Source of the DNA: a virus
Direction: 5' to 3' (one strand)
IMG/VR virus record: IMGVR_UViG_3300045988_095709
Coordinates: 33,509-97,508 of that record
Length of the DNA: 64,000 bases
Shown: positions 10,543 to 49,600 of the stretch, in pieces
Layout of the letters: each line of letters opens with the position of its first letter
How positions within the stretch are numbered: position 1 is the first letter of the stretch
The notes under the pieces: generated by a model
The model's database searches: none
The model's input: only the letters and a program-made list of their open reading frames with translations
What the model was told of the DNA's origin: nothing
Made by a program: the position numbers and the translations under genes

Positions 10543-11694
10543 ATGGCAAGAAAAAAAGATAGTCTTTCTGTTTTCGAAGATACATTGAATAAATTAGGAT
10601 ATAGTAATCCTGAAATTAAAGAAAATGTAACAAGTCTAGACGACGTTTTAGACAACGAACAGGAAACAGATATAGATGATATAGATGATAATCCAGTAAA
10701 CAAAACTGAGGAAAATAAAGAAGTAGATCCTGAATTAAAAGAAGACAATACTGAAATACCAGAAGGTGTATTTCAAGGTAAAGATCAGGAAAATAAAGAC
10801 GGCGAAAAAAATGCTACAGAAGAACAGACAGAAGAAGAGGAAATAGAAGACATAACAGAAGAAGAATCTTCTCAGGTCGGAGCATTTTTTGACGCGTTCG
10901 CTGAGTCTTTAGGATGGGATGTTTCAGACGAAGAAAGACCTGATTCTATAGAAGGTCTTATAAGTTACATACAATAGATTGTAGAACAAAATTCAAAACC
11001 AGAATATGCTGACGAACGAATTCAGCATCTTGACGAATACGTCAAAAACGGTGGAAAGTTTGAAGACTTCTATAACAATATGTCTCAATCTATTTCGTAT
11101 GACGACTTAGACGTAGAGAACGAAACTGATCAGAAACTTGCAGTAAGAGACTACTTAAAGCTTCAAGGTTATACTGAAGAACAAATATCTAAAAAGATAC
11201 AAAGATACGAAGACGCTGATGTACTAGAAGACGAGGCTTCTGACGCAATAGAAAGACTGAAAGAAATAAAACAGTTGGAATTAGAAGAGACTCAGAGACA
11301 GCAGCAACAGTATGCAGAAAGACAAAGACAATCTGCAATACAATTCGTATCAGATCTGAATAATAAAATAAGCAATATAACATCTATAAGAGGTGTTTAG
11401 ATTCCAAAGCAGGACAGAAAACTTTTGTTTGATTATATTACAAAAGTAGATGCAAATGGAATGACACAGTATCAAAAAGATTTTAATAAGAATATGATAA
11501 ATAATCTTATAGAATCTGCTTATTTTACTATGAAGGGTGATCAATTAATAAATGAAGCTACAAAGACAGGTCAAACTAACGCAGTTAACAAACTAAGAAA
11601 AACATTAAAACATCAATTTAAAAATCATTCAACTTATAATACACAAGAAGAAAAACAACGTTCATTGATAGATTTAGCGTCAAAATGGATCTAA
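10543..11694 (+). CDS. Scaffolding-like protein (acidic, coiled-coil)
   Basis: It runs from ATG 10543 to TAA 11692-11694 with 2 in-frame TAG. The N-terminal half is very acidic (D/E runs at 10640-10900) and a predicted coiled coil follows (...LKEIKQLELEETQRQQQQYAERQRQ...). It lies immediately upstream of the capsid gene. Confidence 0.55.
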
Positions 11695-11722: not shown

Positions 11723-13243
11723 ATGAATACACTTTTAAACAATCTTCAACTTTATAGAGGACGTCGTTTCTCTGATCTGGTTGATGAAAACATGATTTCA
11801 AACGCACTATTAACAAAGCCTCATGAGGTTTCAGGTCTTCTTTCTCTTGTATTTGGTACAAAGGATGACGGAGTATCTACAGCTATTGACTTGATTACTG
11901 GAGGTCTTGGTAAAACAATGATTATCGAAAACCGCGAATATGAGTGGTCAGTAATGATCGACAGCGACCATGCGGTTAACATTCGTTATGCTAAGTATAA
12001 CGGAAAGGAGCTTACAGATTCAGATATCGATACAGTAACTCCTGGTATTAATGGTTCTCCTATTTATATAGGTCTCGAGGAGAAGTGGTTTGGACCTGGT
12101 GCAATTCTCTCATTCGACGATTATAATTTTCAGGTTCGTGTTAACGGAAAGCCCTATCAGGATGGAAGCACATGGGTATACGAGTGCTACGTTGCAGACG
12201 GATTTGCAAGCTCATATATTCCTGTTGAGTATCTTCTTCCTGGAAGACAGGTTAGCCGTATTGGTAGCGCATACGAAGAGTATAGCGACGAGGCAGATAT
12301 CATAAACTATCAGACACCGTTTAAGATGCGTAACAATCTTAACACACTCCGTCTGTCTTATGATATTACAGGTGACGCTTATTCTACAGTATTGGCTATC
12401 GCTCTGAAGGATCCTGAGACAGGTAAGACATCTTATCTGTGGGCAGATTACCAGTATTGGTTGGCTCTTCGTCAGTGGAAGAAGCGTGAGGAGACAATGC
12501 TTCTGTTCTCTCACTCTAACAGAAATGCTGACGGTACATACGCACTCAAGGGAACTAACGGACGTGTTGTTCCAATTAGCGCTGGTCTGTTTGAGCAGGT
12601 TTCTCCGGCAAATATTCGTTATTACACAACACTGACTGCAGAATTGCTCGAGGATTATCTGTTCGATCTCACATACAATCTTCTCGGAACACAGGAGCGC
12701 AAGTTTATGGCTCTTACTGGTGAGATGGGTATTCGTGAATTCGATCGCGTACTTCGCGAAAAGGCTGCTGGATTCCAGCTTATTGATACGAAATTTATTA
12801 CTGGCTCAGGTCAGGAATTGACACTCGGTGGTCAGTTTACAACATATAAGATGACAAACGGTATTGAGTTGACAGTTAAGCGTTGTGCTCTGTTCGACAA
12901 TATGGAACTGTTCCGTCAGCTCCATCCGATTTCTGGAAAACCGTTGATGTCATACACATTCTTGTTCGTAGATCTCGGACAGCGTGACGGACAGGCAAAC
13001 ATCGTTAAGGTTTGTCGTAAGGGTCGTGAGTTTGTACAGTGGGTTACTGGTGGTTCTGTAATTCCTAGCGGATATGCAAACAGCATCAATACTCTGCGTT
13101 CTAACTCTAGAGATGGTTATCAGGTTCACTTCCTCGGTGAATTCGGTATAATGCTTCGTAATCCTCTGTCTTGCGGTATTCTCTACTGCGATGCTGAAGA
13201 TACAGATATACGTAACGAGGGTAATGCTAACGTAACAGCGTAA
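11723..13243 (+). CDS. Major capsid protein (506 aa)
   Basis: This is an uninterrupted standard-code ORF with no TAG. It follows the scaffold-like gene and has a typical HK97-class MCP size. Its codon usage differs strongly from its neighbours: it favours AAG, CGT, CTT/CTC and GGT, 16 of its 17 Gln codons are CAG, and one sampled 60-nt line (12541-12600) has 31 G+C. A hairpin follows the stop. Confidence 0.7.
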   Translation: MNTLLNNLQLYRGRRFSDLVDENMISNALLTKPHEVSGLLSLVFGTKDDGVSTAIDLITGGLGKTMIIENREYEWSVMIDSDHAVNIRYAKYNGKELTDSDIDTVTPGINGSPIYIGLEEKWFGPGAILSFDDYNFQVRVNGKPYQDGSTWVYECYVADGFASSYIPVEYLLPGRQVSRIGSAYEEYSDEADIINYQTPFKMRNNLNTLRLSYDITGDAYSTVLAIALKDPETGKTSYLWADYQYWLALRQWKKREETMLLFSHSNRNADGTYALKGTNGRVVPISAGLFEQVSPANIRYYTTLTAELLEDYLFDLTYNLLGTQERKFMALTGEMGIREFDRVLREKAAGFQLIDTKFITGSGQELTLGGQFTTYKMTNGIELTVKRCALFDNMELFRQLHPISGKPLMSYTFLFVDLGQRDGQANIVKVCRKGREFVQWVTGGSVIPSGYANSINTLRSNSRDGYQVHFLGEFGIMLRNPLSCGILYCDAEDTDIRNEGNANVTA

Positions 13244-13269
13244 TATTTGTTTAAATGATAATGTTCGAC

Positions 13270-13286
13270 AGGGGCGTAAAGCCCCT
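13270..13286 (+). terminator. Hairpin after the capsid gene
   Basis: AGGGGC (13270-13275) pairs with GCCCCT (13281-13286) around a GTAAA loop, 27 nt after the MCP stop. There is no clear T-run. Confidence 0.4.
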
Positions 13287-13323
13287 ATGCCGACATTGCA
13301 ACATACTAATTTAAAAATAAATT

Positions 13324-16312: not shown

Positions 16313-17371
16313 ATGATAACATACGTAAACACAGTGCTTGTTGGAAAAGGAGCAAGCGCAATTGTAAGCACAGATACAGAACTCGTGCACGAAAGTAAAG
16401 ATCTTACCAACGCTGGTAAGTATGTAATAATGGATATCGATAACGGAAAGCTTTTGTCAGCAGATACTGCAAACACAGCAAATAGAATTAAGATCGGTAT
16501 CATTCGTCCTGAAAATACTGCTATTCATCTTTCTGATGGTACAGTTAAGTATCATGACGTAATCAAGTGGTCAAACATAATAAGCAAGGATTCTATCATT
16601 TCTATTAACAGCCTTAAGTATGGTGCTGAGAAGAATACTGAAGAGAAGGTTACTGTAGATTTTTCTAATGTAAACACTCAGGTTATGGCAGACTTCGCTA
16701 AGGGAGGAAAGAGAATCGTTCTTCGTATTACTTATAAGGATCTTCCTACTAGATATCGTAAGTGGACTGAGTCTTATGAGTATATTACAGCTCCTGAGGA
16801 TACTGCAGATACTATTGCAGAGAGTTTTGCTGCTCAGATTAACGGACAGTACAAGAGAGCTAGAGTTACAGCTTCTGCTGCTTCTGGAGTACTTACTCTT
16901 ACAGCAATGCCTTATACAGATGATGATTCTAACGATTCTATCAACTGGGCAGAGACTGTACGTTTCAGTGTAAACTGCTACTTTACAGATCCTACTGCTG
17001 CAGCATTTGCTTCTAAGAACAAGTATGCAATTCTCGGTCTTGAGATCGAAAAGACTCCTGGAAAGAGATATGCTGCTGACGCTAAGCTTGTACGTGATCG
17101 TGAAGCTAATGCTATGGGTTACGAAGGAATCCTTAACAAGGGATGCTGCACTTGGCCTATCATCAAGCCGGCAATGCAGGTAGATATTACTAAGAACTAC
17201 GATGCTATTACATTGGAGTTCGAAAGAATGTATCGTGCTGCAGACGATATTTTCCGTAAGACGAAGGAAAGTATTGAGATCTATGACGTTACTGGATCTT
17301 TGACAGACGTTGCTAAGGCTATTAAGAATTTCTCAGGAATGACTATAGCCGGAGACGATCTTACAGCGTAA
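16313..17371 (+). CDS. Abundant virion protein, candidate auxiliary capsid or decoration protein (352 aa)
   Basis: This ORF is uninterrupted and TAG-free. It has the same G/C-ending, AAG/ATC/CGT-rich codon style as the MCP. Its stop context, ACAGCGTAATATT, is identical to that of the MCP, and its own hairpin plus T-run follows. Confidence 0.55.
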   Translation: MITYVNTVLVGKGASAIVSTDTELVHESKDLTNAGKYVIMDIDNGKLLSADTANTANRIKIGIIRPENTAIHLSDGTVKYHDVIKWSNIISKDSIISINSLKYGAEKNTEEKVTVDFSNVNTQVMADFAKGGKRIVLRITYKDLPTRYRKWTESYEYITAPEDTADTIAESFAAQINGQYKRARVTASAASGVLTLTAMPYTDDDSNDSINWAETVRFSVNCYFTDPTAAAFASKNKYAILGLEIEKTPGKRYAADAKLVRDREANAMGYEGILNKGCCTWPIIKPAMQVDITKNYDAITLEFERMYRAADDIFRKTKESIEIYDVTGSLTDVAKAIKNFSGMTIAGDDLTA

Positions 17372-17401
17372 TATTAATTAATGTTTAATGTAGATGGGGT
17401 T

Positions 17402-17436
17402 GGGGTCTTTTGACCCCTATCCTATTTATTTTTTAA
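17402..17436 (+). terminator. Intrinsic terminator after 16313-17371
   Basis: GGGGTC (17402-17407) pairs with GACCCC (17412-17417) around a TTTT loop. A T-rich tract, CTATTTATTTTTT, follows. Confidence 0.55.
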
Positions 17437-25585: not shown

Positions 25586-26434
25586 ATGAAAAATTTAAAA
25601 GTTAGTATAATAATGTCTGCATATAATTCTGAAAATACAATAGACACTGCAATACAATCTGTATTAGAACAAACTTATGATAATTATGAATTAATAATTG
25701 TAAACGATTGTTCTATAGATGGTACATTAGATAGAATAAAGAAATATAAATCTGATAAAATAATACTAATAAATCATGAATTTAATATGGGATGCGGATG
25801 TTCTAGAAAAACAGGAATAGAAAATTCAACAGGAGATTATATTTGTTTTTTAGACAGTGATGATTATTATGATGACAGATATGTGGAAACATTAATAAAC
25901 TATGCAATACAATATAATGCTGACAGTATACAATCTGGTAGAATAATAATAAAATATGGAGAACTTATAGAAAAAATTCCTGAATTTTATGATATATCTG
26001 GATCAGACAAATTGATAATAGAACCGTCTGAAAACTATAAGTTTTTAAATTCAGCCATGTTTAAAAAAGAATTATTCGACAAAGTTGAATATTCTGAAAA
26101 CAGATATAACGAAGACGGTCCGACGATTACCAAATTAAATATGATATGTAATCGTAGAATATTTATTCCGTATGCTGGATATTATTATAATAACGATAAT
26201 GCAAACAGTCTTACTAAAAATTCAGATAATATTAAAAATATAATATATCATTCTTTAGGAGTGTTTGATGTTATAGATTTTGCGAATAATAATAATATAA
26301 AATACGATTGGAATCAACTTATAATACATACGTTGAACAATTTAAAAAATATAGAATATACACAAGACGTAATTTAGAAATATAAAAATGAATTATTACG
26401 TTTGTATTTATATATTATAAAATTAAATATATAA
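25586..26434 (+). CDS. Family-2 (GT-A fold) glycosyltransferase
   Basis: The N-terminus VSIIMSAYNSENTIDTAIQSVLEQTYDNYELIIVNDCSIDGT and the DxD motif FLDSDDYY are classic GT2 signatures. There is no internal TAG. The standard-code ORF ends at TAG 26375-26377. If that TAG is decoded, 19 more codons follow to TAA 26432-26434. The gene is very AT-rich (12 G+C in its first 60 nt). Confidence 0.85.
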
Positions 26435-26435
26435 T

Positions 26436-26582
26436 ATGGGAATTATACTTGGACAATTACAAATTAAAGACATACGGTTGGGAACCAAATAGGTAATCAA
26501 AGTGTACAACGGAGAACAATAGATACATAGTAATACGTAGGAACAGTAGATATCAAAAGATCAGGTTGTAGATTTATAGTAA
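26436..26582 (+). CDS. Small hypothetical ORF (48 codons, 5 TAG)
   Basis: It runs from ATG 26436 to TAA 26580-26582 and encodes MGIILGQLQIKDIRLGTK(Q)VIKVYNGEQ(Q).... Coding status is uncertain. Confidence 0.3.
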
Positions 26583-26762
26583 AAGATAATTCTTAAATAT
26601 TCAAAAAATTTAATTTTTTATTGAAAAAAGTGACATTTTTTTGAAACCACTCATGTGGGGTTTATACGTTATATATAAGTAATTACATATATTTTTCGTG
26701 CGCACACGAGATTTTTATTTATAACTAACCTATTTTTAATTTATTTTTATTTATTTATTCTT
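26583..26762 (+). promoter_or_regulatory. Largest intergenic region of the block; probable promoter or regulatory region for 26763-27551
   Basis: This 180-nt AT-rich non-coding stretch contains a hairpin AAACCAC-TCAT-GTGGGGTTT (~26643-26663) and a GC-rich palindrome GTGCGCAC (26698-26705). I could not identify a clean Bacteroidetes-type -33/-7 promoter. Confidence 0.3.
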
Positions 26763-27551
26763 ATGGAAGATAAAATCACAGAAAAAGTTTATTGTTATGA
26801 CCATCCTAGCGCTTATAACAACAATAACGCTTGGGAGGCTATGGCTCTTATGAATGGTGGATCAAATTGGTAGAATAACCCATTCATTTATTTAGTATGG
26901 ATGATGTTTGCTAATCGTATGTGGGGAGGAGAAAGAGATTGTGCAGGAAATGCTCAGTATATGGCTCTTCAGAACCAGATTAGCGATAACCAGAATGCGA
27001 ATTTGGTAATGGACGGTATTAAGGGAACTACCGATGCCGTTCGTCAGTTAGCAGCTAATCTAAATTGCGATTTCAATACTTTGAATTCTGCAATTTGCGA
27101 CGTACGCTCTGGCATACAGCAAGTGGCTGGACAAATCGGTTTCAGCTCCGAAAGAGTAATCAATGCTGTGAATATGGGCGATTGCAATGTTATTCAGGCT
27201 ATCCAGAACTGCTGCTGCCAAACACAGCAGAGTATCTTAAAGATGGGATACGAGAATCAACTTGCAAATTGCAATCAGACGAATGTTCTCTCTAATGCTA
27301 TACAAGGTGTAAACGTAGGATTAGAGCGCGGTTTCTCTGCAGTTGCGTATGAGACCCAGAAACAGACGTGTGACTTGCTTAACGCCGGAAATTCTAATAC
27401 ACAAAGAATAATTGATGTATTGAATAACCATTGGAATAGTGAGTTGCAGCAGAAGTATGATGATGTAAGAACAGAACTTTCTCAGTACAGACAGAGTGCT
27501 TATCTGATCTCTCAATTGAAGCCCACTTCAACTACTACTGCGGCTGCGTAA
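26763..27551 (+). CDS. Cys/Gln/Asn-rich repeat protein of unknown function, probably highly expressed (262 codons)
   Basis: It runs from ATG 26763 (alternative ATG 26901) to TAA 27549-27551 with a single TAG at 26871-26873. Codon usage is the CAG/AAG/CGT-rich style of the MCP. A hydrophobic N-terminal segment (PFIYLVWMMFANRMW) is followed by about four helical Cys-containing repeats (NCDFNTLNSAICD / GDCNVIQAIQNCCC / ANCNQTNVLSNAI / QTCDLLNAGNSN). Confidence 0.7.
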
Positions 27552-27577
27552 TTTAAAATTTTAAAATACGTGCAATG

Positions 27578-27604
27578 AAGGGAGTGGAAACACTCCCTTT
27601 TTTG
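27578..27604 (+). terminator. Canonical intrinsic terminator
   Basis: AAGGGAGTG (27578-27586) pairs with CACTCCCTT (27591-27599) around a GAAA tetraloop, and the T-run continues to 27603. Confidence 0.8.
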
Positions 27605-27626
27605 TTATTATACAATTTGAAAGATT

Positions 27627-28142
27627 ATGACATTTAAAGATTTAAAAACAAATTATCCTGTGTACTTATTTGATAAGAACATAGTGAAGTTGTATGAAGG
27701 TAAAGTAACTAATATAAACGCTCCTCATATTGATATTAAAAATGCTGGAGCAGGTAGAGGAATGGTTGTAGATGTAACAGTACAGTATAATACAGAAAAT
27801 AATGGAAATTAGACGTGTACTTATACTTTTAAAGATTCTACCGAAATAGGATACATAAACAGTCTTGTTATATCTACCGATAAAGATTTAATATTGAAAG
27901 AGGTTGAAGCATTATGTAATCAGTCTAAATAGATATTACAATCTGTAGAAACAAATAAAAATATAGTAAATCGTTGTCAAGATATCTTATCAGAATATAA
28001 TCCCGCAATAAAAGAGAAAAAAGAATACGATGAAAGATTTTCAAATTTAGAAAATCAAGTAAAAGATATGAAAAGTATGATAGAAACATTAGTAAATAAA
28101 TTAAATAATACTTCTGAAAATGAGCAACGAACAGAAAAATAA
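27627..28142 (+). CDS. Hypothetical protein (171 codons)
   Basis: It runs from ATG 27627 to TAA 28140-28142 with 2 TAG. The C-terminus is coiled-coil-like. It overlaps the next gene by 23 nt. Confidence 0.6.
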
Positions 28143-28620
28143 AATAGATAAGATGTCGGCTTACATAAGCGAAGACATCAACGAAAAATAGATACAAAAA
28201 TCTATAATACAAAAATTAATAACCGAAGCAAACAAATACGATAGAGAGTTTGTAGATAGGATGTATGAATACTACGACGGAATGAAGTAGTATAATAATT
28301 ATTTAACAGAAGACGAAGCTTCTTAGATACTGAGTAATTTTGTAAATTACGATGGTACAAAAGGAGCTATGTTTAAAAATTCAATGTGGTTGTTTAACAG
28401 ACTTGCTGAATAGAATTTACATTGTGAATGCGCTCCTAATTATAACAAATGGGCATTATATGTTACTATGAATAAATTCGCTTCAGATCAGGGAAATGTT
28501 ATAAATAAGTGGATAGGAGAAGATAAAGATAAATTTATAATTGCTTGTTATGATTTATCTACTGCTCAACTCTCAGATGCAGACAGACCGCATTGGGTTA
28601 GATCTTATTTTAATTTATAA
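28120..28620 (+). CDS. Hypothetical protein (166 codons)
   Basis: I read frame 1 line by line from ATG 28120 to TAA 28618-28620 and found 4 TAG. Confidence 0.6.
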
Positions 28621-28621
28621 T

Positions 28622-29056
28622 ATGATATTTTAGGCAGATGATACATTAATATAGGCAATATGTAATTTTGAAGGTTTAAGAACCACAGCTTATAAATGTC
28701 CGGCTGGTGTTTATACTATAGGGTATGGACACACAAAAGGAGTAAAAAAAGGACAAAAAATAACTAAACAACAGTCTGTGGAATATTTATACTAGGATTT
28801 ATAGCCTATTGTGGACTACCTAAACAGTATAAATGTGTGTAGAACACAAGGTTAGTTTGATGCCCTTGCCGATTTCATATTTAATTTAGGTACTTCTGCA
28901 TTCAAAAGATCTACGTTATATAAATACATAAAAAATAGATATTCCGACGACGCTATATGTAATCAAATAATGAGGTGGGTATATGCCGGAGGAAAAAAAT
29001 TAAACGGTTTAATAAAACGTAGATAGTGGGAATGCGATATGTGGAAATCAAAATAA
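28622..29056 (+). CDS. Endolysin, GH24 (phage lysozyme / muramidase) family
   Basis: It runs from ATG 28622 to TAA 29054-29056. The translation ...FEGLRTTAYKCPAGVYTIGYGHT...(Q)FDALADFIFNLGTSAF...WVYAGGKKLNGLIKRR.. matches the GH24 signature (E-G ... TIGYGHT ... Q-F/Y-DAL ... G-L-x-x-RR). It has 6 in-frame TAG in 144 codons, including codons 4 and 11. Confidence 0.9.
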
Positions 29057-29060
29057 CACT

Positions 29061-29585
29061 ATGAACATATTAGCATCTATTGGAAATACATTTAATACGA
29101 TAAGCAACGGTACAGAAATAGGAAAATTAGCTGTTGCTGCATCGGCTATATTAGTCGCATATATATCTCCAATAGTTGGATTGTTAATCGCCTGTTTTGC
29201 ATGTTCTATCACAGACATGATTTATGGAATCAAAGTAGCAAAACGGCTAGGAAAGAAAATCACTAGTAAAAAGAACTGGAAAGGAACTCTTACTAAAATA
29301 AAAGACGAATTTACTTTAATACTATTGGCACACCTATTAGAGTATGTAATAGGATATGGTGATAATTTCATACTATCTGGAGGTATAGCTGTGATTATAT
29401 GTTTGACTGAAATACTTTCTATATTGGAAAATCTAAACACACTAAACCCAGAAGGACCGTGGAAACTGATAAGTAAATTCTTAAAGAAAAAGGGTTCTGA
29501 CATAATGGATATAGATGACAATATAATTTAGCAAAATGATGACGATAATAAATTGGTTAATAAACAACAAAAGAATCGCCATTGA
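29061..29585 (+). CDS. Holin (multi-TM; phage_holin_4-like SILENL motif)
   Basis: The 156-aa standard-code ORF 29061-29531 has three or more hydrophobic segments and TEILSILENLNTLNPEGP. It lies directly after the endolysin. Its first stop is TAG 29529-29531. If that is decoded, 18 charged codons (QQNDDDNKLVNKQQKNRH) are added up to TGA 29583-29585. Confidence 0.6.
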
Positions 29586-30183
29586 TGCCATTCTTTGCGC
29601 CTGTGCTGCGTTATTTCTCGGTTATGGTATAATTATGCATAATCAAAATAAAAAGCTCTCAGAAAGCCTAGAAATGGCTAATAATAACATAGAGGCCTAT
29701 TAGGGTGTTATTTCAGCATCCTAGTAGGCCAATAATGTTTTAAAGCTATAGATGGCTGATTTGAAACAATATAATGATGAAGCTATAAATAAATTAGATA
29801 GCGTAAGAGAAGAATATAAAATAAATGCTAAAGATTTAAACACCGCTGCAACTTAGACTCAAACTATAGACGTTAATAAGAGTAAGGGGGTAGGGGGTTA
29901 GATTGTTGTAGTAAATGATACTATATATAAAGATAGTATATAGTACAACGATCTTACTAAAGTATTTTATACTATAGGAAAAGATAGTGTAAATATAAGA
30001 TTAGATTTTAAAAATACTTAGTATTTATATATTTATAAAAAGAAAGAATATAAAAATAAGAAAAATTTTTTCCAACGCTTATTTACTTTAGATTTCAAAA
30101 AAGTAACTAGATATAAATATAGAATAATAAACACAAACAATTTGATTAAAGAAGATAGCGTTAGAGTAATAGAACAGAGTTGA
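29536..30183 (+). CDS. Spanin-like protein (N-terminal TM plus coiled coil), the third gene of the lysis cassette
   Basis: I read frame 1 line by line from ATG 29536 to TGA 30181-30183 and found 8 TAG. The TM segment AIDAILCACAALFLGYGIIM is followed by a helical region. The function is inferred from position and topology only. Confidence 0.4.
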
Positions 30184-40641: not shown

Positions 40642-43600
40642 ATGGATATAAAAAGAATGCAAGGCGTCGCTTCATAGATTGCAGTATAGAATGCAAATCA
40701 ATGGGAGTGGGACGTACTTAGACGAGAGCGTCTTAGAGAATTAAGCAAAAGAAGATAGTAGAATAATAATACGGGATCTTCTAATACTAAATAGAAGGAA
40801 CAACAGCAATAGAACGAGTAGGCTCAATAGTCGCAACAAGGCGGCTTTAAGCCTACTTATTCTGCTACATAGAGTTCTCAAAATAAAAACATAAATCTAC
40901 ATCCTTTCTTTCTGAATGACGACGATTCAAATACAGATCCTAATTAGTTTTTATAGCCTATAGAGGTTTAGAATATGGGCTGGAATACACAAACTAAGAA
41001 TTGGATAAACGAAGGATCTACTGGAAATCAACAAAGAAGAATAAATAACAGAAACGAAATATTAGCTAGATCTAAATATAATGTTGATTTATAGTTGCAA
41101 AGAAAGAGAAACATAGCAGAAAATAGTAGGAATGGAGATATGGATTTCTATTATGCTCCATACGAAGATGCTGTAAAAGAATACGAAAAAGAAAAGCAGT
41201 GGTATATAAATACAGATCCTAGAGTATTAGAAGCTAAAAGAAAATACGAATAGATAAAGTCAGGAGAACAGCCTGAAGGATATTTTGACAGAGCTTTGTA
41301 TGCGTTAGGTCAGATATCTACTCTCGATGTGCACGGTGTTGTTAACGGAATACAATCGATATTTGCTGGTAATAAAGCTAAAAAACAAGATTTACTAAAC
41401 GATGCGTACAACGTATGGATGTAGAGAAAAAATGAGACACAGATAGCTACATCTAATGGTAAACTACAAATAGCTGATTAGATATCTAACGTGTTAGACT
41501 CTTCTTCTATAGATAGATATGTAGATGTATGTAACCAATTAATAGCAGATACAGATAGAAGAAATAGTCTTATAGACAAATATACTAGTAGAACAGGATA
41601 GGGTATTACTAGAGAAGAGTCTTTGGAATTAGACATGTTGAAAAACAGAATAAATACACTTACTAAGGAAAAAGACGAATTTGAAAAAAACATAGAATCT
41701 GCAGGAACATACGAATCTAATACTTTGTTGGGAGCTGCAATATCTAATGCGCAAGAATATTTAACCAGTGGAGGAGGTTCTTTTAATTTTGATTTTGGAA
41801 CTGGACTTGGTGGATCTCTATTAGGATTTAGAGAGAACATAACCAAATTGTAGAAAGGATTGGCTACAAGAAATCCTCAGATGGTTGAAGAAGCAAGACA
41901 GAACCTTAAAAGAATAAGAGGTGCTTACGAGAATCAATCTTAGAAAATGAAAAATCTCTGGAGAAAAGATATCGAAAGAGATACTAAAGATTTGAATAGT
42001 TATACCAGCAAATATACAGTTAGTGATTACTTTTTAAATAAAGAACAAGAAGCAAATCAAATATTAAATCCGTTCAATCCTAAGAAGTTGTGGATGGCTC
42101 CTGGTCTTTTAGGAGCATCTTTGTCTGATACTAATAAAATGGCTGTTAGCACAGCTACTGGACTTCTTACTATGTTGCCGATAGGAAGAGCTGCACGAGT
42201 AGGATTACAAGCTGCAAACTATGTGTCGTAGGTAGCTCAGGGAGCAGACGAAAACTTTGCTAACGTAGATTAGGCATACAAAGAGATAGTAAGATCGTCT
42301 TTGACTGAACAAGGATAGTATAGAACGTTTTTATAGGACGGTAGAGAAGCTATCGGAAATCCTGCTGCTACTGACGAGGATATAATAAACGCTTATTTCA
42401 GAGGAGATTATATTCCCAAAGACATAAAAGTCAGAAAGACTTTAATGAATGCTACTACAGGTTCAATGAAGTAGTTCATGTAGGGACAGGGAGTTAATCT
42501 ATTAGACTCTTGGATAGACATGGCTATAGAAACTACACCTGTTGGTAAGTTTGCAAAACTGTCCAAAATAGAAGCTGTAAAGGGCGCAAAACAAGGTCTT
42601 GCGAACATTGGAGAATCGTTAGCTGGAACTAAAGCTGGTCAATTTGTAACAAGTGCTCTAAAGAATTCAAAAGGAAAAGCTACACAGCTTGTAGACAAGA
42701 TGGTAGAGTATGGAGTACGAAGAACAGCAAACGTTTCACAGATAGCCAAAGAGATGCCAAAAAGACTTCTACAGACTAGATATAATCTTGGAGTAGCAAA
42801 TAGAGCAGTAAAAGATATAGCTAAGAGATCTGTGATAGGAGCCTACTCTGAAGCAGTAGAAGAAGGTTTGCAGCAAGAACAGCAATACGAAAGAATGCAC
42901 AATCCTTCTGATTAGTACTATGATGTCTATAAATAGATTCCTAATACTATACTGGGAGGTCCTAGATTGTGGTATTCTTTATTGTTCAAAGATCCAGACA
43001 AGGCTTCGTAGGAAGAATAGGAAATATGGCAAAGCATGGCTGGTGGTATATTAGGATCTTTTGTACAAGGAGGTTCAATGAATATTGTTCGTACTGGAGT
43101 AGACGCTGTACAACAGATGAAGGATGGAGATATCATACTCAACAATATAATAGCTGATAAAATAAACGGTGACACTCAAATCGAAAAGGCAAAGTTGTAT
43201 TCTAAAAAACTAAGAACATAGAGGGGAAAACAAAACCTGATAGATGTATTAGATTAGTATTAGCAATATAATGATAAACTAAATCAATCATATAAAGAAG
43301 GTGGTGTAAAATAGGGAATACCAGAAGAGTGGATAGCTGAAGATAAAGCTATGGTGTAGGATATAGAAAACATTCGATATTCACAAAAAACACAACAGTT
43401 AGCTAATAGATTGGGAATCAAAAATAAAAAGTTCAATCTTATAGACAACGACGATTACGATCTACTTGTAGCGATGCTATATAGAAATCAACAGCAAATA
43501 AAAGAAGACAACGATTCTTTAAGTGAGGTTGTACGTAATCAAGAAAAACAAACTCCTATTACTTTTAACCAGTTCTTAGAAAATCAAGTAAGTGCTGGAA

Positions 43601-46600
43601 ATTTAGATTAGAATTTCTTATAGAGTTATATCGGAGAGCAAAACGGAATAACAAGTTTGGTAAATACTGAAAATTTATCAGAAGAAGAGTTAAACAATGT
43701 TTAGAAAAAATATCAAGAATTACAAAATAGATATAATAATTACATTTCTAACATAGATACGATAGCTAAGCTTGCTGCTAATATGAAAACTCTTCAAGAG
43801 ATAAAAGCTCTTGATAGACTTAACGGTAGACAGTCTTTTATACAAAAACGCGTAGAAAGAGAAGTCAATAAAATAAAACAAAATATAAATAAAATATACG
43901 AACAGCAAGGAAAGCAAGCTCATAAGATGGATACTCTTTCTGACGTAGAAGATTTTTATAAGAAAGCAGGTCTTCCTATAAGTGAGGATTATATAAATAA
44001 CATAAAAACTATAGATGAATACAAATTACAACGAGATTTATCTATAGAAAAAGCTTATAAATTTATAACAGATCCCAAATACGCTAAAAAACAACTGTCT
44101 CAATACAAAGAAACTAAAAAACAAGACGAGTATTTACAACAACAAGTTGAGTCTGACTACTATGATAAAGTTCTACACGATTATGCCGTACAAGACGCTG
44201 AAATAAACGACAGTAATAATATATATGTCGGAGAAGATGGAAAAACTTATGCGGTAAGACTGAATGTAGCAAAAGACGAAAATGGAGAAGACGTTGAGTA
44301 TTATTCTAAACATCTATATGATCCAAAAACTGACGTAATGGACAGAAGTGAACTTCCTTTCGATAAAGAAGAATGGTTCGACGGAAGAGATCAGATAGAT
44401 GATATGACGCAAATAAAATCTCCTCAACTTAGAGAAAACGACGGATCTGAAGAACGTGTAGAAGAATTTTCTAAAAGACGAGATGTAAACGAATAGAAAC
44501 AAAAATATACTCAAGATCTATTAAACGATAAGAGTAGAAATGGTTATACAAGTAGAGCGAATCGTATAGAATCTTTTGTAGATGAAAATTATTCTCCGTA
44601 CAAAAGAGGAAAACAGTATTTCTTAAAGAACGGAGAAGAAGAATTAGAGATAACAAAGACGGAATATAATTACGCTAAATGGTATAAGAAAAACTATTAT
44701 ACAGAACAACAAGAGGAAACACAAGACGATGTTCAAACCGAATAGGAAAATATAGACGGACAGCGTGATAACGTTGAACCACAGGTTTAGAAAGAAGAGA
44801 AACCTTCTGGACCAGAAGAATCTCAGAACACTGAACAAGAACAACCGATAACAAATAAAGAAGTAGAACAACCTGCGAGCGAACCTGAACAGAATCAATA
44901 GGAACAACAAGATTAGGAAGAAGATCAGAAGGTTCCAGATATAAAAATGACAGACGCTCAGAAAAATGTTATATAGGATCTTTCTCAGTTTAAGGTAGAA
45001 GGTAATAAAAAAATAAGATACGATTTGCGTTCTCCTATGGATTATTTTATAGAAGACGAAGATGGAAATATACAAGCGTATCCTAGAGTACATAGTAAAC
45101 TTAAGAAGATGTTCGAATTAGACCATACTGTATATGACAATATGAATTCTATATTCGAAGAACTTGAGAAATACAGACTTGATTTTATCGATGCATTCAA
45201 ACATAGAAATGACAATCAAGATGCCGCAGATAAATATAAAAAGTCTAAAATTTCATACATAAATAAAATAAAACAGTTACAATAGGAATACAACGAGTCA
45301 TTATTGAAAACTGTAAAAAATAATGAAAACTTGTACGATTTCTATAATGTTATTTTGGATGGATATTATTCTAACGATAATATACTAATGAGCAAATCCA
45401 CTACCGATCATATATCTAAAATAGTAGGAAATAGGATTGGTGATAAGGTACAGTTACCTGCTACTTCTGTAATATCTGGTACAATAGTTGACGAAATATG
45501 TAGAAGATGTTTTAGTGGAGAAGATGTTAAAAACGAACCGAGATTCAAAATGGACGATTCTACATTCGAACAACTTAAACAAGACATAATAGATGTAAAG
45601 TCTGACTTCGAAAGCAAAGGTTGGATACTACTTCCGCAACAATATTGTTGGTATACTGAATTAGAAGGAATAGGAAGAATCGCAGGAGAAACAGATATGT
45701 TGGCTGTTGATACTGACGGTTCTGTATATCTTATCGACTTTAAAACAAGTAAGAGATCTTATAAATACGGAACTCAAGTTAAAATTAGTGGGGATAAGTT
45801 AATCACACAACCTTCTAATTACGTAGAAGCTATAGACTGGAGTTTTGCAAAATCTAACTTTTCAGCAAGAGACGAATATAGAACACAGTTTACTTTGTAC
45901 TCTATGATGATACAACAGTGTACTATGTAGAGGCAGAAAGTAAAAACAATAAATATATTAGGATTTACCGTAAAAGCTTCTGTTTCAGATAATGATCTTG
46001 TACAAATTAAATCAATAGAAAAACCTAATTTTATAGAGTTAGAAATACAGGATGATTTGAATACTTATTTGATTTTTGACGAAGATTCTTAGAACACAAT
46101 AAGAAAAGAAAAAGAAAATTATTTAATTCTCATAAATCATATAGAAAATCAGTTACAATCTGATAAAAACTATTTAAATCAGCATTTCGATGAAATAAAT
46201 AAGAGTTCAAACTTATATAGAGAGTTAGAACAACTTTCTACTAGAACTAAAGATATAAAATCTAGAATAAATAAAATAGATATAAACAAAGATCCTGTAT
46301 CTGAATTGAAAAACATTCACGATCAATATCTGTAGTTATCTACTGATTACAGTAATGCTGTACAAAAAGTATAGGATTACTTATCTTAGAAAGCTGAACA
46401 ATATCAACAAGAACAAACACCTACAGTATCTACACAAAGTATACCTGTAGATATACAGTGGGACTTTAAAGAAATAGAAAAATACGATCGTGTATGGTAT
46501 ATAAACGTATCTAGGCAGAACGAAAAGCTTAGACAATTCAGAAGGATTACTACAAATAAAGATTTTATCGAAAACACTACTTTCTATTTGGATACAAACA

Positions 46601-49600
46601 TTAAAACGTTGATGAATCATGATTACATGATAACGTTTGAAAAAATAGTATATCACACTAAGGATCAAAACGGAAACGACGTATAGTTTGTATTAGAAGG
46701 AGATGACGCTAGAAGTGTATCTATTTACTTTGCAAAATACGATTAGGACAGAAGACCGTACGGATACGGATAGAATCCTTTAGTAAAACAAATAAAGGAA
46801 GCGTTACAACAAAACGAAGAAAACATAAAAAACAAAAACTTCCAATTAGTTTTGACAGGATTATCCAGAACAAATGGAGTCATAATAAGTCTTAAAGAAA
46901 ACAAAAATGTAAAAGACACGTTCGATTTTACAGAAGAATAGATAGAACACCTGTTAGAAAATGGTACAGACCGAGTAGGTGTTACTGATAAAATGGGTGT
47001 TGTAAAAACTATAGATAAAGCAAACAAAACTATATACGGAGACGGTATATATGCAAACTCAGGAGAACGTAGATTATCTCCTGGACAAGTAGTACTGATA
47101 CACGATTTAAAATATAACGAGGATAAAGGTAACGGCAACCATAAAATACCAATCGTACTCTTACCGAAAAAGATAACAAATGCCGATGCTGATCTTATTA
47201 TAAACCTACTGAAAGACACAAGTAAGTAGGAATTGGCTGTTACAAATTCTGGTATTGTTGGACCTATAACAAAATATTAGTTGTTATCTACACTCGTAAG
47301 ATTCGGTCGTGGTGCACAAAATACAGGAAACGATTTCGTATTTAGATACAAAGAAATAGACGGTGTTGCACAAAGAGACATTGTAGAACTACAAATCAGA
47401 GATGAAGAAGGTCAATTAATTACTACAGAATATGACTTGAATAATCCTGTATCTGTAGGTCAATTAAAACGACGTTTAGTAGAAGATGTATACTTATATA
47501 CAAATAATATATCTGTATTAAACAAGGCTACAAATAAGGCAAGAAACACAGATAAAAACAACATATTCTCACAGTTACAAGAATTCTTCGAAAACAATCC
47601 TAATATAAACTAGATAAGTTATGGAGAGAGTATGGTGTTCAATCGTGCAGACGTAGATCCTGACGGAGATGGTTCGTACAAAGGAATAACAGGATTACAC
47701 TGGATGATAAGACACGGTTGGCTTACTACTAACTACGGTGGTGTTACAGATTCTATTTTCTCGGCTACAGGAGTTTAGGGAATAATACCGAACAAACAGT
47801 AGTAGAATATAGAACAACATCCTGAACCAGAAAAAGTAGAAAATATAGACGTATAGCCAGAATAGAATGTCGGCGGAAACATAGGATACGAGAAAGAAGA
47901 TGTTGAAGATGTTAGTATAGACGACGTTAACGAACTTCTTGGTGGAGACTTTGTGGCAGACAACGAAGGTCTTTTCCATAAGCAAAAAGGAAAAGCTAAT
48001 GTAAAGATAGAAGAGAATGTAGCAAGAAGAACTATAAAACGAATTGTTGGAGACTCTATACCTTTACAGATGATAGACGATATTATATCGGTAATGTATG
48101 ATGGAGATGTTGTCGGTATGTGTACTGCAGCTAGTATATATATTTCTAGACAAGCTGAAGCCGGTACTGATTACCACGAGTCTTTCCATGCTGTTGTCGA
48201 ACTTCTTATGGATAAAAATAAGCGTGAGAGTTTGTATAAATTTACTAAGAATAAATTTAACATGCAAAACGCTACAGACGAAGAAGTTGCGGAAGCTTTA
48301 GCAGATTTATTCTTCTTATATAGTAAAGATGCTATACATTTTGAGGGAAGAATTGGAAGACTGTTCTCTTATGTAAAAGACTGGATAAATGCATTTAAAG
48401 TTACAAAAAGTTTAAGGCTTGCTAATTTGTTTGTGAATGCAGATTTTGGAAAATTCGCAAATAAAACTATAAGCAAAGAACAGGTTAACGATTTTAAAAA
48501 TAGATTCCCAAAAGGTCTTAACTTGAAAATAAAAGGTAAGAACGGAAATGGTGTAGAATTTAAACACATATACACATCTACTCAATTAGACGACGCAATT
48601 AATTATTTAGTATATCTGATAATAAAGAATGAAGGTATAAGTAGTATTGGTTCTAATCTAGACAAGTTAGATATTTCTAAGGAGCATCTTACTAATACGA
48701 AACTTGACGAAAACAACAAACCGATTTCTAATTTCGGAAAAACTTATAGAATAGTAACAATGAGCGGTAAGTCTGAATAGGAATTGGATGATTTAGTAAA
48801 AGAAGGAAAGATAACGCCTCTCGTTAAAAACAACGTGTTAATAATGAGAGAAATATTTAACAATTACGAAGACATCAAACCTATGATACTCGCAAAGTTG
48901 AAGAGCATGGGTGTTAACTCTAGACTAGACTAGGAATAGACAGAAAGAGAAAACAAAGAGGGAGACGATGTTAGTCAAATATCACGAGATGTAGATTCTC
49001 ACGCAGACGAATTCTACACACATTCGATGTCTGACGATTTATCTTCTAATATGATATTCTTCTTAAGTACTAGACCTGCATTAAGATATGCTACATAGGA
49101 GGATGTTGATAATGGAATTGTACAATCTTTGTATAAGAAAGATAGAAACGGAAACGAACAGAGAGTTTTAGTATCTTCTTCTAAAAATTCTATGGGAATG
49201 ACTACTTTCCTAGATTACAAACAAGTACACTAGTTATTATTATCAAATCTTCATGATGTGAAAGACGTTGAAGATTTATATAACAAACTTAAAAAACTAG
49301 GAAAGAACGATTATCTTTATGAAAATATAGCAAGAAGTTTATATCAATTTAGATTCCAATCTTATAAGAGATATACCAACAGAAAAGACGGAATGGATAA
49401 CGTACCTATGGTAATGTATAAAGGAAAATTATTAGATCCTAAACATTATATTTCTAATAAAAACAAATTATCATAGGAAGATCTGTATCCTAAGTTTGTA
49501 AGATGGTCTCATGATGTACTCGACAAGAACGGAAAAATAATATTCAAAGCCGGAGATGTGATACAGGGTGCAAGTATTGTGATGAATTACGATATGGAAA

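What the first reader, a model, noticed from the sequence alone, without database searches (positions are those of the whole stretch)
26583..27604. Self-contained expression cassette for an unknown Cys-rich repeat protein just upstream of the lysis genes
The largest intergenic gap in the block (180 nt, with a GTGCGCAC palindrome and a hairpin) precedes this gene. The cleanest terminator in the window (9-bp stem, GAAA loop, T-run, 27578-27604) follows it. The product has a hydrophobic N-terminal segment and then about four degenerate helical repeats, each carrying Cys (including a CCC triplet). It is rich in Gln and Asn, has a Thr/Ala tail, and uses the high-expression codon dialect. I cannot assign it to any family. 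Its abundance signature suggests either a major virion decoration or fibre component, or a membrane-associated factor linked to lysis or superinfection exclusion.
Basis: partly seen in the sequence, partly recalled or inferred. Interest (0 to 1): 0.7.

Follow-up and report, generated by a model that had tools for sequence, protein, structure and literature searches.

The report
Abundant coiled-coil fibre protein of gut phages
This gene in a crAss-like gut phage encodes a highly expressed, cysteine-stapled, roughly 22-nm helical rod from a very large but uncharacterised phage protein family, most likely an accessory fibre on the virus particle, not a lysis or membrane protein.

Summary
The window is a crAss-like phage that reads TAG as Gln. 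The gene is 26763-27551 (262 aa, one in-frame TAG). Standard-code ORF calling truncates it to 216 aa.

It has the largest intergenic gap of the + strand block upstream, and the best terminator in the 64 kb downstream. It shares a GC3-rich, CAG-preferring, TAG-avoiding codon style with only two other genes: the major capsid protein and the probable auxiliary capsid protein.

It does belong to a family: PHROG 16490, function unknown (4,180 clusters at 90% identity). Members occur in phages of Bacteroidales, in Clostridia-binned contigs and in archaeal viruses.

AlphaFold predicts one helix of about 150 residues. A CCC motif is nearly invariant, and C-terminal tails vary.

The hydrophobic N-terminal helix is too short to span a membrane.

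X travels with two or three partner genes (Y, optional V, Z=DUF7841).

crAss001 lacks the module. In relatives it occupies the slot of head-fibre gene gp29, and no GenBank record has both.

Best reading (about 0.4): an abundant, disulfide-stapled accessory virion fibre. A membrane or lysis role is the main rival (about 0.2). No experimental data exist.

The parts
26436..26582 (+). Small 48-codon ORF with 5 in-frame TAG codons (MGIILGQLQIKDIRLGTKQVIKVYNGEQQ...). Whether it is a real gene is uncertain.
   Evidence: Read from the sequence and translated. No PHROG hit.
26583..26762 (+). 180-nt AT-rich leader or intergenic region upstream of X. Largest gap in the + strand gene block. No recognisable promoter.
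   Evidence: Gap table. The sigma-70-like scan found no more sites than shuffles. No k-mer is shared with the upstream regions of the other two highly expressed genes. No Rfam match.
26694..26721 (+). Hairpin containing GTGCGCAC (7-bp stem, 4-nt loop) followed by TTTTTATTT. It is terminator-like and could end transcription from the upstream genes.
26763..27551 (+). Gene X: 262-aa member of PHROG 16490.
   Evidence: family profile score 352.9 bits; single copy in the window.
26871..26873 (+). In-frame TAG (codon 37), read as Gln. Standard-code ORF callers therefore truncate the protein to 216 aa starting at 26901.
   Evidence: A UAG-reading suppressor tRNA (anticodon CTA), annotated tRNA-Gln, is present in relative cr7_1. 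TAG to Gln was shown by proteomics in crAss-like phages (PMC9523058).
26880..26915 (+). Short hydrophobic helix (residues 40-51, PFIYLVWMMFAN) within the invariant NNPF.Y motif. Too short and too polar-flanked to be a canonical transmembrane span.
27072..27518 (+). Predicted single continuous alpha-helix (residues 104-252, about 22 nm). Hydrophobic periodicity about 3.67. Presumed parallel coiled-coil stalk.
   Evidence: AF2 with the diverse alignment: pLDDT 77-98 for residues 140-255. Periodicity analysis.
27210..27218 (+). TGC TGC TGC = Cys150-Cys151-Cys152, the most conserved feature of the family.
   Evidence: Invariant in 27 close homologs. Conserved in 89-98% of 65 diverse members.
27522..27548 (+). 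Thr/Ala-rich C-terminal tail (residues 254-262). In other members it is replaced by (Cys-Gly)n or by Tyr/Gly-rich tails ending in FWG.
27577..27606 (+). Intrinsic terminator: AAGGGAGTG-GAAA-CACTCCCTT followed by TTTTGTT.
   Evidence: best in the 64-kb window. A comparable hairpin plus T-run follows X in 23 of 76 related loci, with unrelated hairpin sequences.
27627..28142 (+). Gene Y (171 aa; N-terminal beta domain plus C-terminal coiled coil; phrog_28898, function unknown). The constant partner of X.
   Evidence: within 3 genes of X in 69 of 79 unique loci; cluster profile 9.6e-59.
28120..28620 (+). Gene Z (166 aa; its cluster matches Pfam DUF7841). The second partner of X.
   Evidence: 7.6e-13 for the cluster representative; 61 of 79 loci; 4.4e-25.
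28622..30183 (+). Context: lysis cassette. Endolysin 28622-29056, holin 29061-29585, Rz-like spanin 29536-30183.
   Evidence: phrog_7 8.7e-53; phrog_199 2.2e-9; phrog_739 8.1e-5.
11723..13243 (+). Comparator: major capsid protein. It has the same codon style as X (GC3 0.37, CAG 94% of Gln codons, 0 TAG) and a GC-rich hairpin after its stop codon.
   Evidence: (phrog_11589 4.7e-127).
16313..17371 (+). Comparator: probable auxiliary capsid protein (crAss001 gp36-like). It has the same codon style (GC3 0.33, CAG 100%, 0 TAG) and a GC-rich hairpin after its stop codon.
   Evidence: E = 6e-4 to gp36; equivalent position downstream of the MCP.

Best explanation
Gene X is made late and in amounts comparable to the capsid proteins. 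It most likely forms an accessory fibre on the virion.

Each chain has four parts:
- a disordered Gly/Asn/Met-rich head carrying one short, very hydrophobic helix (residues 40-51);
- three short helices;
- one uninterrupted helix of about 150 residues (about 22 nm);
- a short variable tail.

I infer that several chains pair in parallel. The hydrophobic periodicity is near 11/3, as in straight helical bundles. I also infer that the nearly invariant Cys-Cys-Cys forms inter-chain disulfides that lock the chains together. Three consecutive Cys guarantee that at least one faces a neighbouring chain whatever the register.

On this reading the N-terminal head docks the rod, directly or through the co-inherited partners: Y (beta domain plus coiled coil), the optional V (a small Cys-rich beta protein) and Z (DUF7841). 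The variable C-terminal tail is the exposed tip.

Functionally it would be an analogue, not a homologue, of the crAss001 head fibres gp21 and gp29. Those are dispensable, lineage-specific surface fibres thought to bind host or gut surfaces.

Shown here: the gene model with TAG read-through, family membership, the abundance signature, the terminator, the long-helix prediction, the conserved module, the accessory status and the host range.

Inferred, not shown: oligomeric state, disulfide stapling, location on the virion, and which end is attached.
For: (1) Expression class. Among 34 + strand genes, only X, the MCP and the gp36-like gene combine GC3 > 0.32, CAG-dominant Gln codons and near-zero TAG. 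The only + strand gaps of 60 nt or more flank these three genes. Each is followed by a GC-rich hairpin. X's terminator is the best in the window.

(2) The bias is a family trait. X has the top GC3 in 37 of 76 loci and is in the top two in 52 of 76. Its GC3 tracks each genome's own level (0.25-0.91) but sits above it, so the bias is expression-linked and not a sign of foreign origin.

(3) Rod architecture. AF2 with 65 diverse sequences gives a single helix 104-252 at pLDDT 77-98 for residues 140-255. Periodicity is 3.67. CCC is conserved in 89-98% of members. C-terminal tails are hypervariable.

(4) The helix is not a membrane span. The summed translocon-scale score is +11.4 for X. Neighbouring holin and spanin TM helices score -1.6 to +1.4, and MCP/AUX score +6.8 to +7.8. 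The family median is +6.6 and only 6% of members score <= 1.

(5) Accessory status, and the same slot as a known head fibre. crAss001 lacks X, Y and Z by profile search. Its relative cr116_1 keeps holin gp28 and endolysin gp30 but lacks gp29 and carries the X module. In cr1_1 the X-V-Y genes lie between holin/LysB-like and endolysin, exactly where gp29 lies in crAss001. 35 GenBank records hold gp29 homologs and 39 hold X, and none holds both.

(6) Precedent from the crAss001 atlas (PMC10172136). Head fibres are abundant and lineage-specific. One is encoded inside the lysis cluster. Virion proteins are disulfide-bonded. The authors expect 'as yet uncharacterized proteins' to fill the role in groups lacking gp21 or gp29.

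(7) Position. X always lies in the late or structural region: after tail fibres, next to lysis genes, or just upstream of the MCP.

(8) Host range. The family occurs in viruses of diderm hosts and in viruses binned or assigned to monoderm and archaeal hosts. That fits a virion part better than an envelope-specific factor.
Against: There is no direct evidence that X is in virions. No cultured phage carrying X has a published proteome, and VLP metaproteome tables held no X-family strings.

There is no sequence or fold similarity to any known fibre or decoration protein.

The same N-terminal motifs (EKIYC.D, MMNGGMNNWMNNPF.YL.W) occur in X proteins from 34-54-kb integrase-bearing phages, about 100-kb crass-like phages and 130-180-kb phages. 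That is hard to reconcile with docking into one specific capsid lattice, unless the docking partner travels with the module.

About 25% of family members have a hydrophobic segment that could span a membrane (score <= 3).

The gp29/X exclusivity is confounded by phylogeny and rests on few independent lineages.

GC3 elevation is not universal. In cr116_1, z = -0.01.
Confidence: 0.4

Rival explanations
1. X is a membrane-associated late protein. Its hydrophobic, Trp-flanked helix anchors it in, or lays it on, the cytoplasmic membrane. The long Cys-containing rod then acts with the neighbouring lysis genes (timing, envelope disruption) or blocks superinfection.
For: Recognised holin, endolysin or spanin genes lie within 6 genes of X in 28 of 51 loci that have at least 5 genes on each side.

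The hydrophobic helix is the kind of segment usually found in membranes. In about a quarter of members it is long enough to span one.

The N-terminal motif type follows the host group (Bacteroidales, Clostridia-type, archaeal) and not the phage backbone. That would fit a host-membrane target.

Conserved Cys are typical of extracytoplasmic proteins.
Against: In this window, and in most members, the helix fails a translocon-scale test that the neighbouring holin and spanin helices pass.

Capsid-level codon adaptation is unusual for lysis regulators.

These phages already encode a holin, an endolysin and an Rz-like or unimolecular-spanin-like protein. Y and Z have no lipobox or signal peptide.

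Occurrence in viruses binned or assigned to monoderm and archaeal hosts excludes a periplasm-spanning role as the general function.

In crAss001 a bona fide head-fibre gene sits inside the lysis cluster, so adjacency to lysis genes is not diagnostic (PMC10172136).
Confidence: 0.22
2. X is a virion-borne, membrane-active device built like the S2 part of a class I viral fusion protein. A Gly-rich hydrophobic peptide is followed by a long heptad-type helix. It inserts into the host envelope during infection.
For: A profile of 65 family members hits coronavirus spike S2 as its top PDB matches (best E = 8e-5; all 60 listed rows are spikes). The match covers about 110 profile positions. From my own knowledge of spike numbering, these correspond to the hydrophobic Gly-rich segment just upstream of HR1 plus HR1 itself. 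This hit is the origin of the GenBank label 'spike protein/glycoprotein'.
Against: The match is only about 24 bits, with Gln/Asn/Ala/Leu-rich composition on both sides.

X has no second heptad repeat and no C-terminal membrane anchor.

The host viruses are non-enveloped tailed phages.

Ejection or penetration proteins are normally low-copy, unlike X's expression class.

The fold search gives nothing.
Confidence: 0.08
3. X is an abundant non-virion assembly protein. It would be a scaffold-like or intermediate-filament-like helical polymer that organises particle assembly in the cell and is not retained in virions.
For: The protein is all-helical, elongated and abundant.

It has Gly-rich head and Gly/Tyr/Cys-rich tail domains flanking a helical rod.

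The module lies directly upstream of the MCP in cr116_1 and in the 30-kb bajarodcaudo virus 2.
Against: The gene upstream of the MCP (10543-11694) is positionally equivalent to crAss001 gp31. It is present in this window, and the gp31 homolog is present in cr116_1.

X is dispensable within one subfamily: crAss001 lacks it.

Hypervariable C-terminal tips and conserved Cys are not typical of internal scaffolds.
Confidence: 0.1

Closest known systems
crAss001 head fibres gp21 (trimer) and gp29 (dimer) (Bayfield et al. 2023, PMC10172136)
   Same: Both are abundant, late, lineage-specific accessory genes of crassviruses. The gp29 gene lies between holin and endolysin, and in cr1_1 the X module sits between the holin/LysB-like genes and the endolysin. 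No GenBank record holds both gp29 and X. Crassvirus virion proteins are disulfide-bonded.
   Different: There is no sequence similarity. gp21 and gp29 are 97-122 aa with beta-rich distal domains. X is 262 aa, all-helical, with a hydrophobic N-terminal helix. Virion location is proven for gp21 and gp29 and untested for X.
Trimeric coiled-coil phage fibres such as T4 fibritin (wac), and the phi29 head fibre gp8.5 (from general knowledge)
   Same: They are non-essential fibres with a long oligomeric shaft, an N-terminal attachment region and a distinct C-terminal tip.
   Different: No detectable homology. X has a Cys-Cys-Cys staple and a Gly/Asn-rich hydrophobic head that those fibres lack. X's expression signature suggests a much higher copy number than fibritin.
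Coronavirus spike S2: hydrophobic segment plus HR1 (class I fusion proteins)
   Same: This is the best and only PDB sequence match of the family profile (E = 8e-5 to 1e-3). It spans a hydrophobic Gly-rich segment followed by a Gln/Asn-rich heptad-type helix.
   Different: The score is low (about 24 bits) and the composition is biased. X has no HR2, no C-terminal anchor, no receptor-binding subunit and no viral envelope. The resemblance is probably convergent.
Lambda Rz-type i-spanins
   Same: Both are late genes near a holin and endolysin. Both have an N-terminal hydrophobic segment followed by a coiled coil containing Cys that, in Rz, form inter-chain disulfides (general knowledge). A rod of about 22 nm would be roughly periplasm-spanning.
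   Different: The X helix fails the TM test. There is no o-spanin partner. A separate Rz-like gene exists in the window. The family extends to viruses binned or assigned to monoderm and archaeal hosts. X's expression level is capsid-like.
PHROG 16490 / GenBank 'outer capsid protein/viral fiber' and 'spike protein/glycoprotein' of crAss-like phages
   Same: X is a clear member (E = 1.7e-22). It is 51-54% identical to the cr7_1 and cr124_1 proteins.
   Different: Those labels are remote-similarity names, not tested functions. The PHROG is listed as 'unknown function'.

Membership tests
PHROG 16490 (uncharacterised phage protein family) | Significant match to the family profile over most of its length | tested here: met
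   E = 1.7e-22, residues 33-251. A distant Clostridia-type member also matches at 1.2e-25. The archaeal virus vir215 protein is annotated phrog_16490.
PHROG 16490 (uncharacterised phage protein family) | Shared architecture: Gly/Asn-rich head, short hydrophobic helix, Gly-rich linker, helical domain with CCC, variable tail | tested here: met
Crassvirus head fibres (crAss001 gp21 / gp29) | Sequence homology to gp21 or gp29 | tested here: not met
   No similarity for X or its partners.
Crassvirus head fibres (crAss001 gp21 / gp29) | Presence in purified virions, bound at hexon centres | not testable with these tools
   Needs virion proteomics or cryo-EM. No published data for any phage carrying X.
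Crassvirus head fibres (crAss001 gp21 / gp29) | Abundant late expression; lineage-specific and dispensable; gene in or near the lysis cluster | tested here: met
   expression proxy; absent from crAss001; same slot as gp29; no record has both.
Class I viral fusion proteins (coronavirus S2-like) | Hydrophobic fusion-type peptide immediately N-terminal to a long heptad repeat | tested here: inconclusive
   The arrangement is present and the profile aligns to the spike segment, but only at E = 8e-5 (about 24 bits) with biased composition.
Class I viral fusion proteins (coronavirus S2-like) | Second heptad repeat and C-terminal transmembrane anchor in a viral envelope | tested here: not met
   There is no hydrophobic C-terminal segment. 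The tail is Thr/Ala-rich. The hosts are non-enveloped tailed phages.
i-spanin (Rz-like) | N-terminal transmembrane domain | tested here: not met
   Summed hydrophobicity +11.4, against +1.4 for the window's own Rz-like protein and -1.6 for a unimolecular-spanin-like neighbour.
i-spanin (Rz-like) | Cognate outer-membrane lipoprotein (o-spanin) encoded within or next to it; restricted to phages of diderm hosts | tested here: not met
   Y and Z lack a lipobox. The family occurs on Clostridia-binned and archaeal-virus contigs.
Holins (including single-TMD class III, T4 T-like) | At least one bona fide transmembrane domain; match to a holin family | tested here: not met
   No Pfam or PHROG holin match. 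TM test failed. A separate holin is present.
Any Pfam / NCBIfam family | Score above the curated cut-off | tested here: not met
   Only sub-threshold chance hits: DUF4094 at 16 bits against a cut-off of 24.5, and LeoA at 14.8 bits against 325.

The most novel reading that the evidence does not exclude
A single protein family is shared by tailed viruses of Bacteroidales, Clostridia and methanogenic archaea. It would form abundant, disulfide-stapled fibres whose Gly-rich hydrophobic N-terminal peptide plus long heptad/hendecad helix act on host membranes in the manner of a class I fusion protein's S2 subunit. That would make it a membrane-inserting 'harpoon' on non-enveloped tailed phages. The variable C-terminal tail would be the end attached to the different virions, and the conserved N-terminus would be matched to the host group.
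Probability: 0.08. Interest if true: 0.85.

Novelty: new variant of a known kind. Interest (0 to 1): 0.6.

Why it matters
[quoted passage not shown] Yet one of their most highly expressed late proteins has no known function. The family has 4,180 clusters at 90% identity and 618 at 50%.

If it is a surface fibre, it is a strong candidate for the 'missing' head fibres of crassvirus groups that lack gp21 or gp29. It could then mediate adhesion to host capsule or gut mucus. Its hypervariable tips would be a new axis of phage diversity.

Its modular spread is also notable. It moves with Y, V and Z between phages of 30-180 kb, across three genetic codes, and apparently across bacterial and archaeal hosts. 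That is unusual for a structural component.

There is a practical point too. Standard-code gene callers truncate the protein at the in-frame TAG and remove its hydrophobic head.

Testable systems exist: the cultured Bacteroides phage C3_41T2LP and prophages in sequenced Segatella copri isolates.

Tried and rejected
- AF2 with a shallow alignment (43 sequences, mostly about 60% identical) gave pLDDT 43 and was discarded.
- Foldseek of the better model against PDB and BFVD gave only noise, as expected for a single long helix.
- Pfam, NCBIfam and a single-sequence PDB search gave only sub-threshold hits.
- PADLOC was not run.
- No solved homologs were found for Y, Z or V. Their PHROGs are all 'unknown function'.
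- The idea that six conserved Cys form three fixed intramolecular disulfides was dropped. Only CCC is family-wide; C102, C112 and C203 are present in 48-62% of members.
- The positive-inside rule around the hydrophobic helix was indecisive: 0.45 K+R in the 15 residues before it against 0.95 after.
- The i-spanin idea was rejected. There is no TM helix and no o-spanin partner, a separate Rz-like gene exists, and some hosts are not diderm.
- The scaffold idea was down-weighted.
- The promoter search failed. The sigma-70-type scan equalled its shuffles, and no k-mer is shared among the three highly expressed genes' upstream regions.
- Rfam found nothing in the leader.
- Literature searches for C3_41T2LP and DUF7841 returned nothing.
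- The VLP metaproteome supplements of PMC9523058 contain no X-family strings. X has few Lys/Arg, so tryptic detection would be poor in any case.
- The search for related loci with the very diverse alignment A4 failed for lack of a conserved stretch, so A3 was used instead.
Full report
WHAT THE WINDOW IS

The window is 32% GC. Under the standard code its longest ORF is 507 aa. If TAG is read as sense, the + strand resolves into a continuous gene block, including a 5,382-codon frame with 104 in-frame TAGs. The closest annotated relatives are crAss-like phages of the family Suoliviridae, cr7_1 and cr124_1. cr7_1 carries a tRNA with anticodon CTA, annotated tRNA-Gln. TAG to Gln has been shown by proteomics in crAss-like phages (PMC9523058). 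The window itself contains no tRNA.

THE GENE

With TAG read as Gln, the gene runs 26763-27551 (262 aa) with one TAG at codon 37. The standard-code ORF list shows only 26901-27551. That loses the N-terminal 46 residues and half of the hydrophobic helix. Homologs begin with the same MEDKITEKVYCYD, which supports the 26763 start.

- The 180-nt gap (26583-26762) is the largest on the + strand block.
- The GTGCGCAC palindrome is a 7-bp hairpin followed by a T-run, and is itself terminator-like.
- The downstream terminator has 9 perfect bp, a GAAA loop and a T-run. It is the best perfect-stem terminator in the whole 64 kb.
- Composition and Cys content are as described: Asn 13%, Gln 9.5%, ten Cys including CCC.
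- Internal repeats exist but are weak (p about 0.013).
- Lysis genes follow after two intervening genes: endolysin (phrog_7, 8.7e-53), holin (phrog_199) and Rz-like spanin (phrog_739).

THE CODON CLAIM

This is the strongest result. Of 34 + strand genes, only three combine high GC3, CAG-dominated Gln codons and near-absence of TAG:

- MCP, 11723-13243: GC3 0.37, CAG 94% of Gln codons, 0 TAG. It matches phrog_11589 at 4.7e-127.
- Gene 16313-17371: GC3 0.33, CAG 100%, 0 TAG. It matches the crAss001 auxiliary capsid protein gp36 weakly (E = 6e-4) and lies at the equivalent position.
- X: GC3 0.40, CAG 68%, 1 TAG.

The other genes of at least 100 codons have GC3 of 0.15-0.30. The only + strand gaps of 60 nt or more flank exactly these three genes. 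Each is followed by a GC-rich hairpin, which is notable in a 32% GC genome.

Across 76 unique related loci, X has the highest GC3 of all genes of at least 100 aa in 37 loci and is in the top two in 52. Its GC3 scales with each genome's own GC3, from 0.25 to 0.91. This argues for expression-linked bias and against foreign origin. A strong hairpin plus T-run follows X in 23 of 76 loci, with unrelated hairpin sequences.

No promoter could be identified. A dedicated transcription unit is therefore only half shown.

FAMILY

X hits PHROG 16490, function unknown, at 1.7e-22. It has no Pfam or NCBIfam family. The family is very large: 4,180 clusters at 90% identity and 618 at 50%. All members are about 240-350 aa, with no domain fusions.

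GenBank relatives are labelled 'outer capsid protein/viral fiber' or 'spike protein/glycoprotein'. The second label is explained by a weak match of the family profile to coronavirus spike S2 (best E = 8e-5, about 24 bits). From my knowledge of spike numbering, the match covers the hydrophobic Gly-rich segment upstream of HR1 plus HR1. I regard this as a resemblance in design, probably convergent.

ARCHITECTURE

Family-wide, the chain has:

- a Gly/Asn/Met-rich head;
- a short, very hydrophobic, often Trp-flanked helix (median uncharged run of 12 residues);
- a Gly/Phe/Asn-rich linker;
- a helical domain of about 190 residues with a CCC motif conserved in 89-98% of diverse members; other Cys are conserved in 31-62%;
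- a variable tail, which is Thr/Ala-rich (as here), (Cys-Gly)n, or Tyr/Gly-rich ending in FWG.

AF2 with 65 diverse sequences gives mean pLDDT 71. It predicts one uninterrupted helix from residue 104 to 252, at pLDDT 77-98 for residues 140-255. At 0.15 nm per residue that is about 22 nm. Hydrophobic periodicity over this helix peaks at 3.67, not 3.5, as in straight parallel bundles.

IS THE HYDROPHOBIC HELIX A MEMBRANE ANCHOR?

I summed the Hessa 2005 biological hydrophobicity scale (values from memory) over 19-residue windows:

- Genuine TM helices of the neighbouring holins and spanins score -1.6 to +1.4.
- The soluble MCP and AUX proteins score +6.8 to +7.8.
- X scores +11.4.
- The family median is +6.6. 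Only 6% of members score <= 1 and 25% score <= 3.

So in most members, including this one, the helix is not a canonical membrane span.

GENE NEIGHBOURHOOD

I clustered neighbours in 80 IMG/VR loci plus GenBank loci.

- X is followed by Y in 69 of 79 unique loci. Y is about 160 aa, with a beta domain plus coiled coil (phrog_28898).
- Z occurs in 61 of 79. Z matches Pfam DUF7841 at 7.6e-13.
- A Cys-rich beta protein of about 135 aa (V) lies between X and Y in 13 loci.
- A small HTH protein often precedes X (28 loci).

The window's Y (27627-28142) and Z (28120-28620) match these clusters at 9.6e-59 and 4.4e-25.

The module sits on contigs of about 30-54 kb (several with integrases), about 100 kb (crass-like) and 130-180 kb, under three genetic codes.

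Recognised lysis genes lie within six genes of X in 28 of 51 loci that have enough flank. Elsewhere the module lies just upstream of the MCP (cr116_1 and bajarodcaudo virus 2) or after tail and DGR genes.

HOST RANGE

Prophages occur in complete Segatella copri chromosomes and in many Bacteroidales MAGs. Distant members with the same architecture occur on about 40-kb contigs binned to Clostridia and Oscillospiraceae, in Methanomethylophilaceae MAGs, and in GenBank virus vir215, whose host is assigned as Methanomassiliicoccales. MAG binning is fallible. However, the Clostridia-type and archaeal-type subfamilies are distinct and internally consistent.

RELATION TO THE SOLVED CRASSVIRUS

crAss001 has no X, Y or Z in its first 50 kb, which holds all structural and lysis genes. 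This was tested by profile search at E <= 10 for X and E <= 1 for Y, Z and V.

Its relative cr116_1 keeps the holin (60% identity to gp28), the endolysin (45% to gp30) and gp31 (47%). It lacks gp29 and has the X module inserted. In cr1_1 the order is holin, LysB-like, 247 aa, X, V, Y, 169 aa, endolysin. That is the slot gp29 occupies in crAss001 (gp27, gp28 holin, gp29, gp30 endolysin).

According to the cryo-EM atlas (PMC10172136), gp29 is a dimeric head fibre and gp21 a trimeric one. Both bind hexon-centre pockets through their N-termini. The capsid's other abundant proteins are MCP gp32 and AUX gp36. Virion proteins are disulfide-bonded. Groups lacking gp21 or gp29 may have uncharacterised analogues.

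In GenBank, 35 records hold gp29 homologs and 39 hold X, with no overlap. This is suggestive but confounded by phylogeny.

INTERPRETATION

The data best fit an abundant, late, accessory structural fibre. It would be a parallel helical rod stapled through CCC, with a variable exposed tip, acting with co-inherited partners. It would be functionally analogous to crassvirus head fibres. I put this at about 0.4.

The main weaknesses are:

- no direct virion evidence;
- no homology to known fibres;
- the same N-terminal motifs occur in X proteins from very different phage backbones, which argues against a lattice-specific socket unless Y, V or Z provide the docking.

The main rival, at about 0.22, is a membrane-associated late factor linked to lysis or exclusion. 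Lysis adjacency and the hydrophobic helix support it. The TM test, the expression class, the host range and the gp29 precedent weaken it.

A fusion-protein-like membrane-active fibre (about 0.08) and a non-virion scaffold or filament (about 0.1) remain possible.

VERDICT

The membrane option is weakened. The claim of no family is corrected: X belongs to a catalogued family of unknown function. This is not a new member of a characterised family. It is a well-defined, widespread and uncharacterised one, and I file it as a probable new variant of phage surface fibre. Interest is moderate to high, because the function is open, the family is very large and highly expressed in dominant gut phages, and tractable test systems exist.

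Noticed in passing
window 1-62073, + strand (for example 40642-56760): The whole + strand block uses TAG as a sense codon. One 5,372-aa gene has 104 TAGs (a virion RNA-polymerase-sized protein), followed by a 1,766-aa gene with 36 TAGs. There is no suppressor tRNA, or any tRNA, in the 64-kb window.
   Followed up: partly
window 25586-26434: A GT2 glycosyltransferase (GtrB-like O-antigen conversion PHROGs, 2.8e-16) with very low GC (23%) sits between the tail-fibre genes and X in a crass-like phage. Under TAG read-through it extends 19 codons past the standard-code stop at 26377.
   Followed up: partly
window 26436-26582: A 48-codon ORF has 5 in-frame TAGs in 48 codons. Its N-terminus is of the 'I.LG....I..V..G' type. 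No family hit, so it is unclear whether it is a gene.
   Followed up: partly
window 29694-29730: A 16-pair hairpin (GGCCTATTAGGGTG...CATCCTAGTAGGCC) lies inside the Rz-like spanin gene. It spans two of that gene's in-frame TAG codons, at the point where the standard-code ORF ends. It could affect read-through or translation of the lysis gene.
   Followed up: no
window 13244-13323 and 17372-17420: GC-rich hairpins (GGGGC-GTAAA-GCCCC and GGGGTC-TTTT-GACCCC) follow the MCP and the gp36-like gene. Together with X's terminator, they mark the three highly expressed genes. They may be terminators or mRNA-stabilising 3' structures.
   Followed up: partly
window 62074-62649: A 576-nt non-coding gap lies at the switch from the + strand late block to - strand genes (62106-63998). 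It may be a divergent promoter or origin region.
   Followed up: no
L060 10915-11436 and 30 other loci (cluster 4): A protein of about 173 aa has an N-terminal lipobox (LILGC) and a C-terminal transmembrane helix, the layout of a unimolecular spanin. It sits next to the holin and endolysin in many Bacteroidales phages. It has no PHROG or Pfam hit.
   Followed up: partly
L017 and L056 (one 162-kb contig); L027 and L068 (one 31-kb contig): Two copies of the X gene occur on the same contig. In addition, several distant (Clostridia-type) members carry two CCC motifs within one protein.
   Followed up: no
L001 4514-5473; L158 2818-3840; L156 4927-5961: A reverse transcriptase (probably of a diversity-generating retroelement targeting the tail protein) lies just upstream of X in cr7_1, cr53_1 and the archaeal virus vir215.
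   Followed up: no
L146 4559-4936 (phrog_3754) next to X in Clostridia-type phages: A 125-aa protein has Cys and His motifs reminiscent of a small cysteine peptidase (GDCVVRA...GTHAVCV). Gly55, directly after the hydrophobic helix, is conserved in at least 90% of X family members (Gly-Gly in the window protein), so proteolytic processing of X is conceivable.
   Followed up: no
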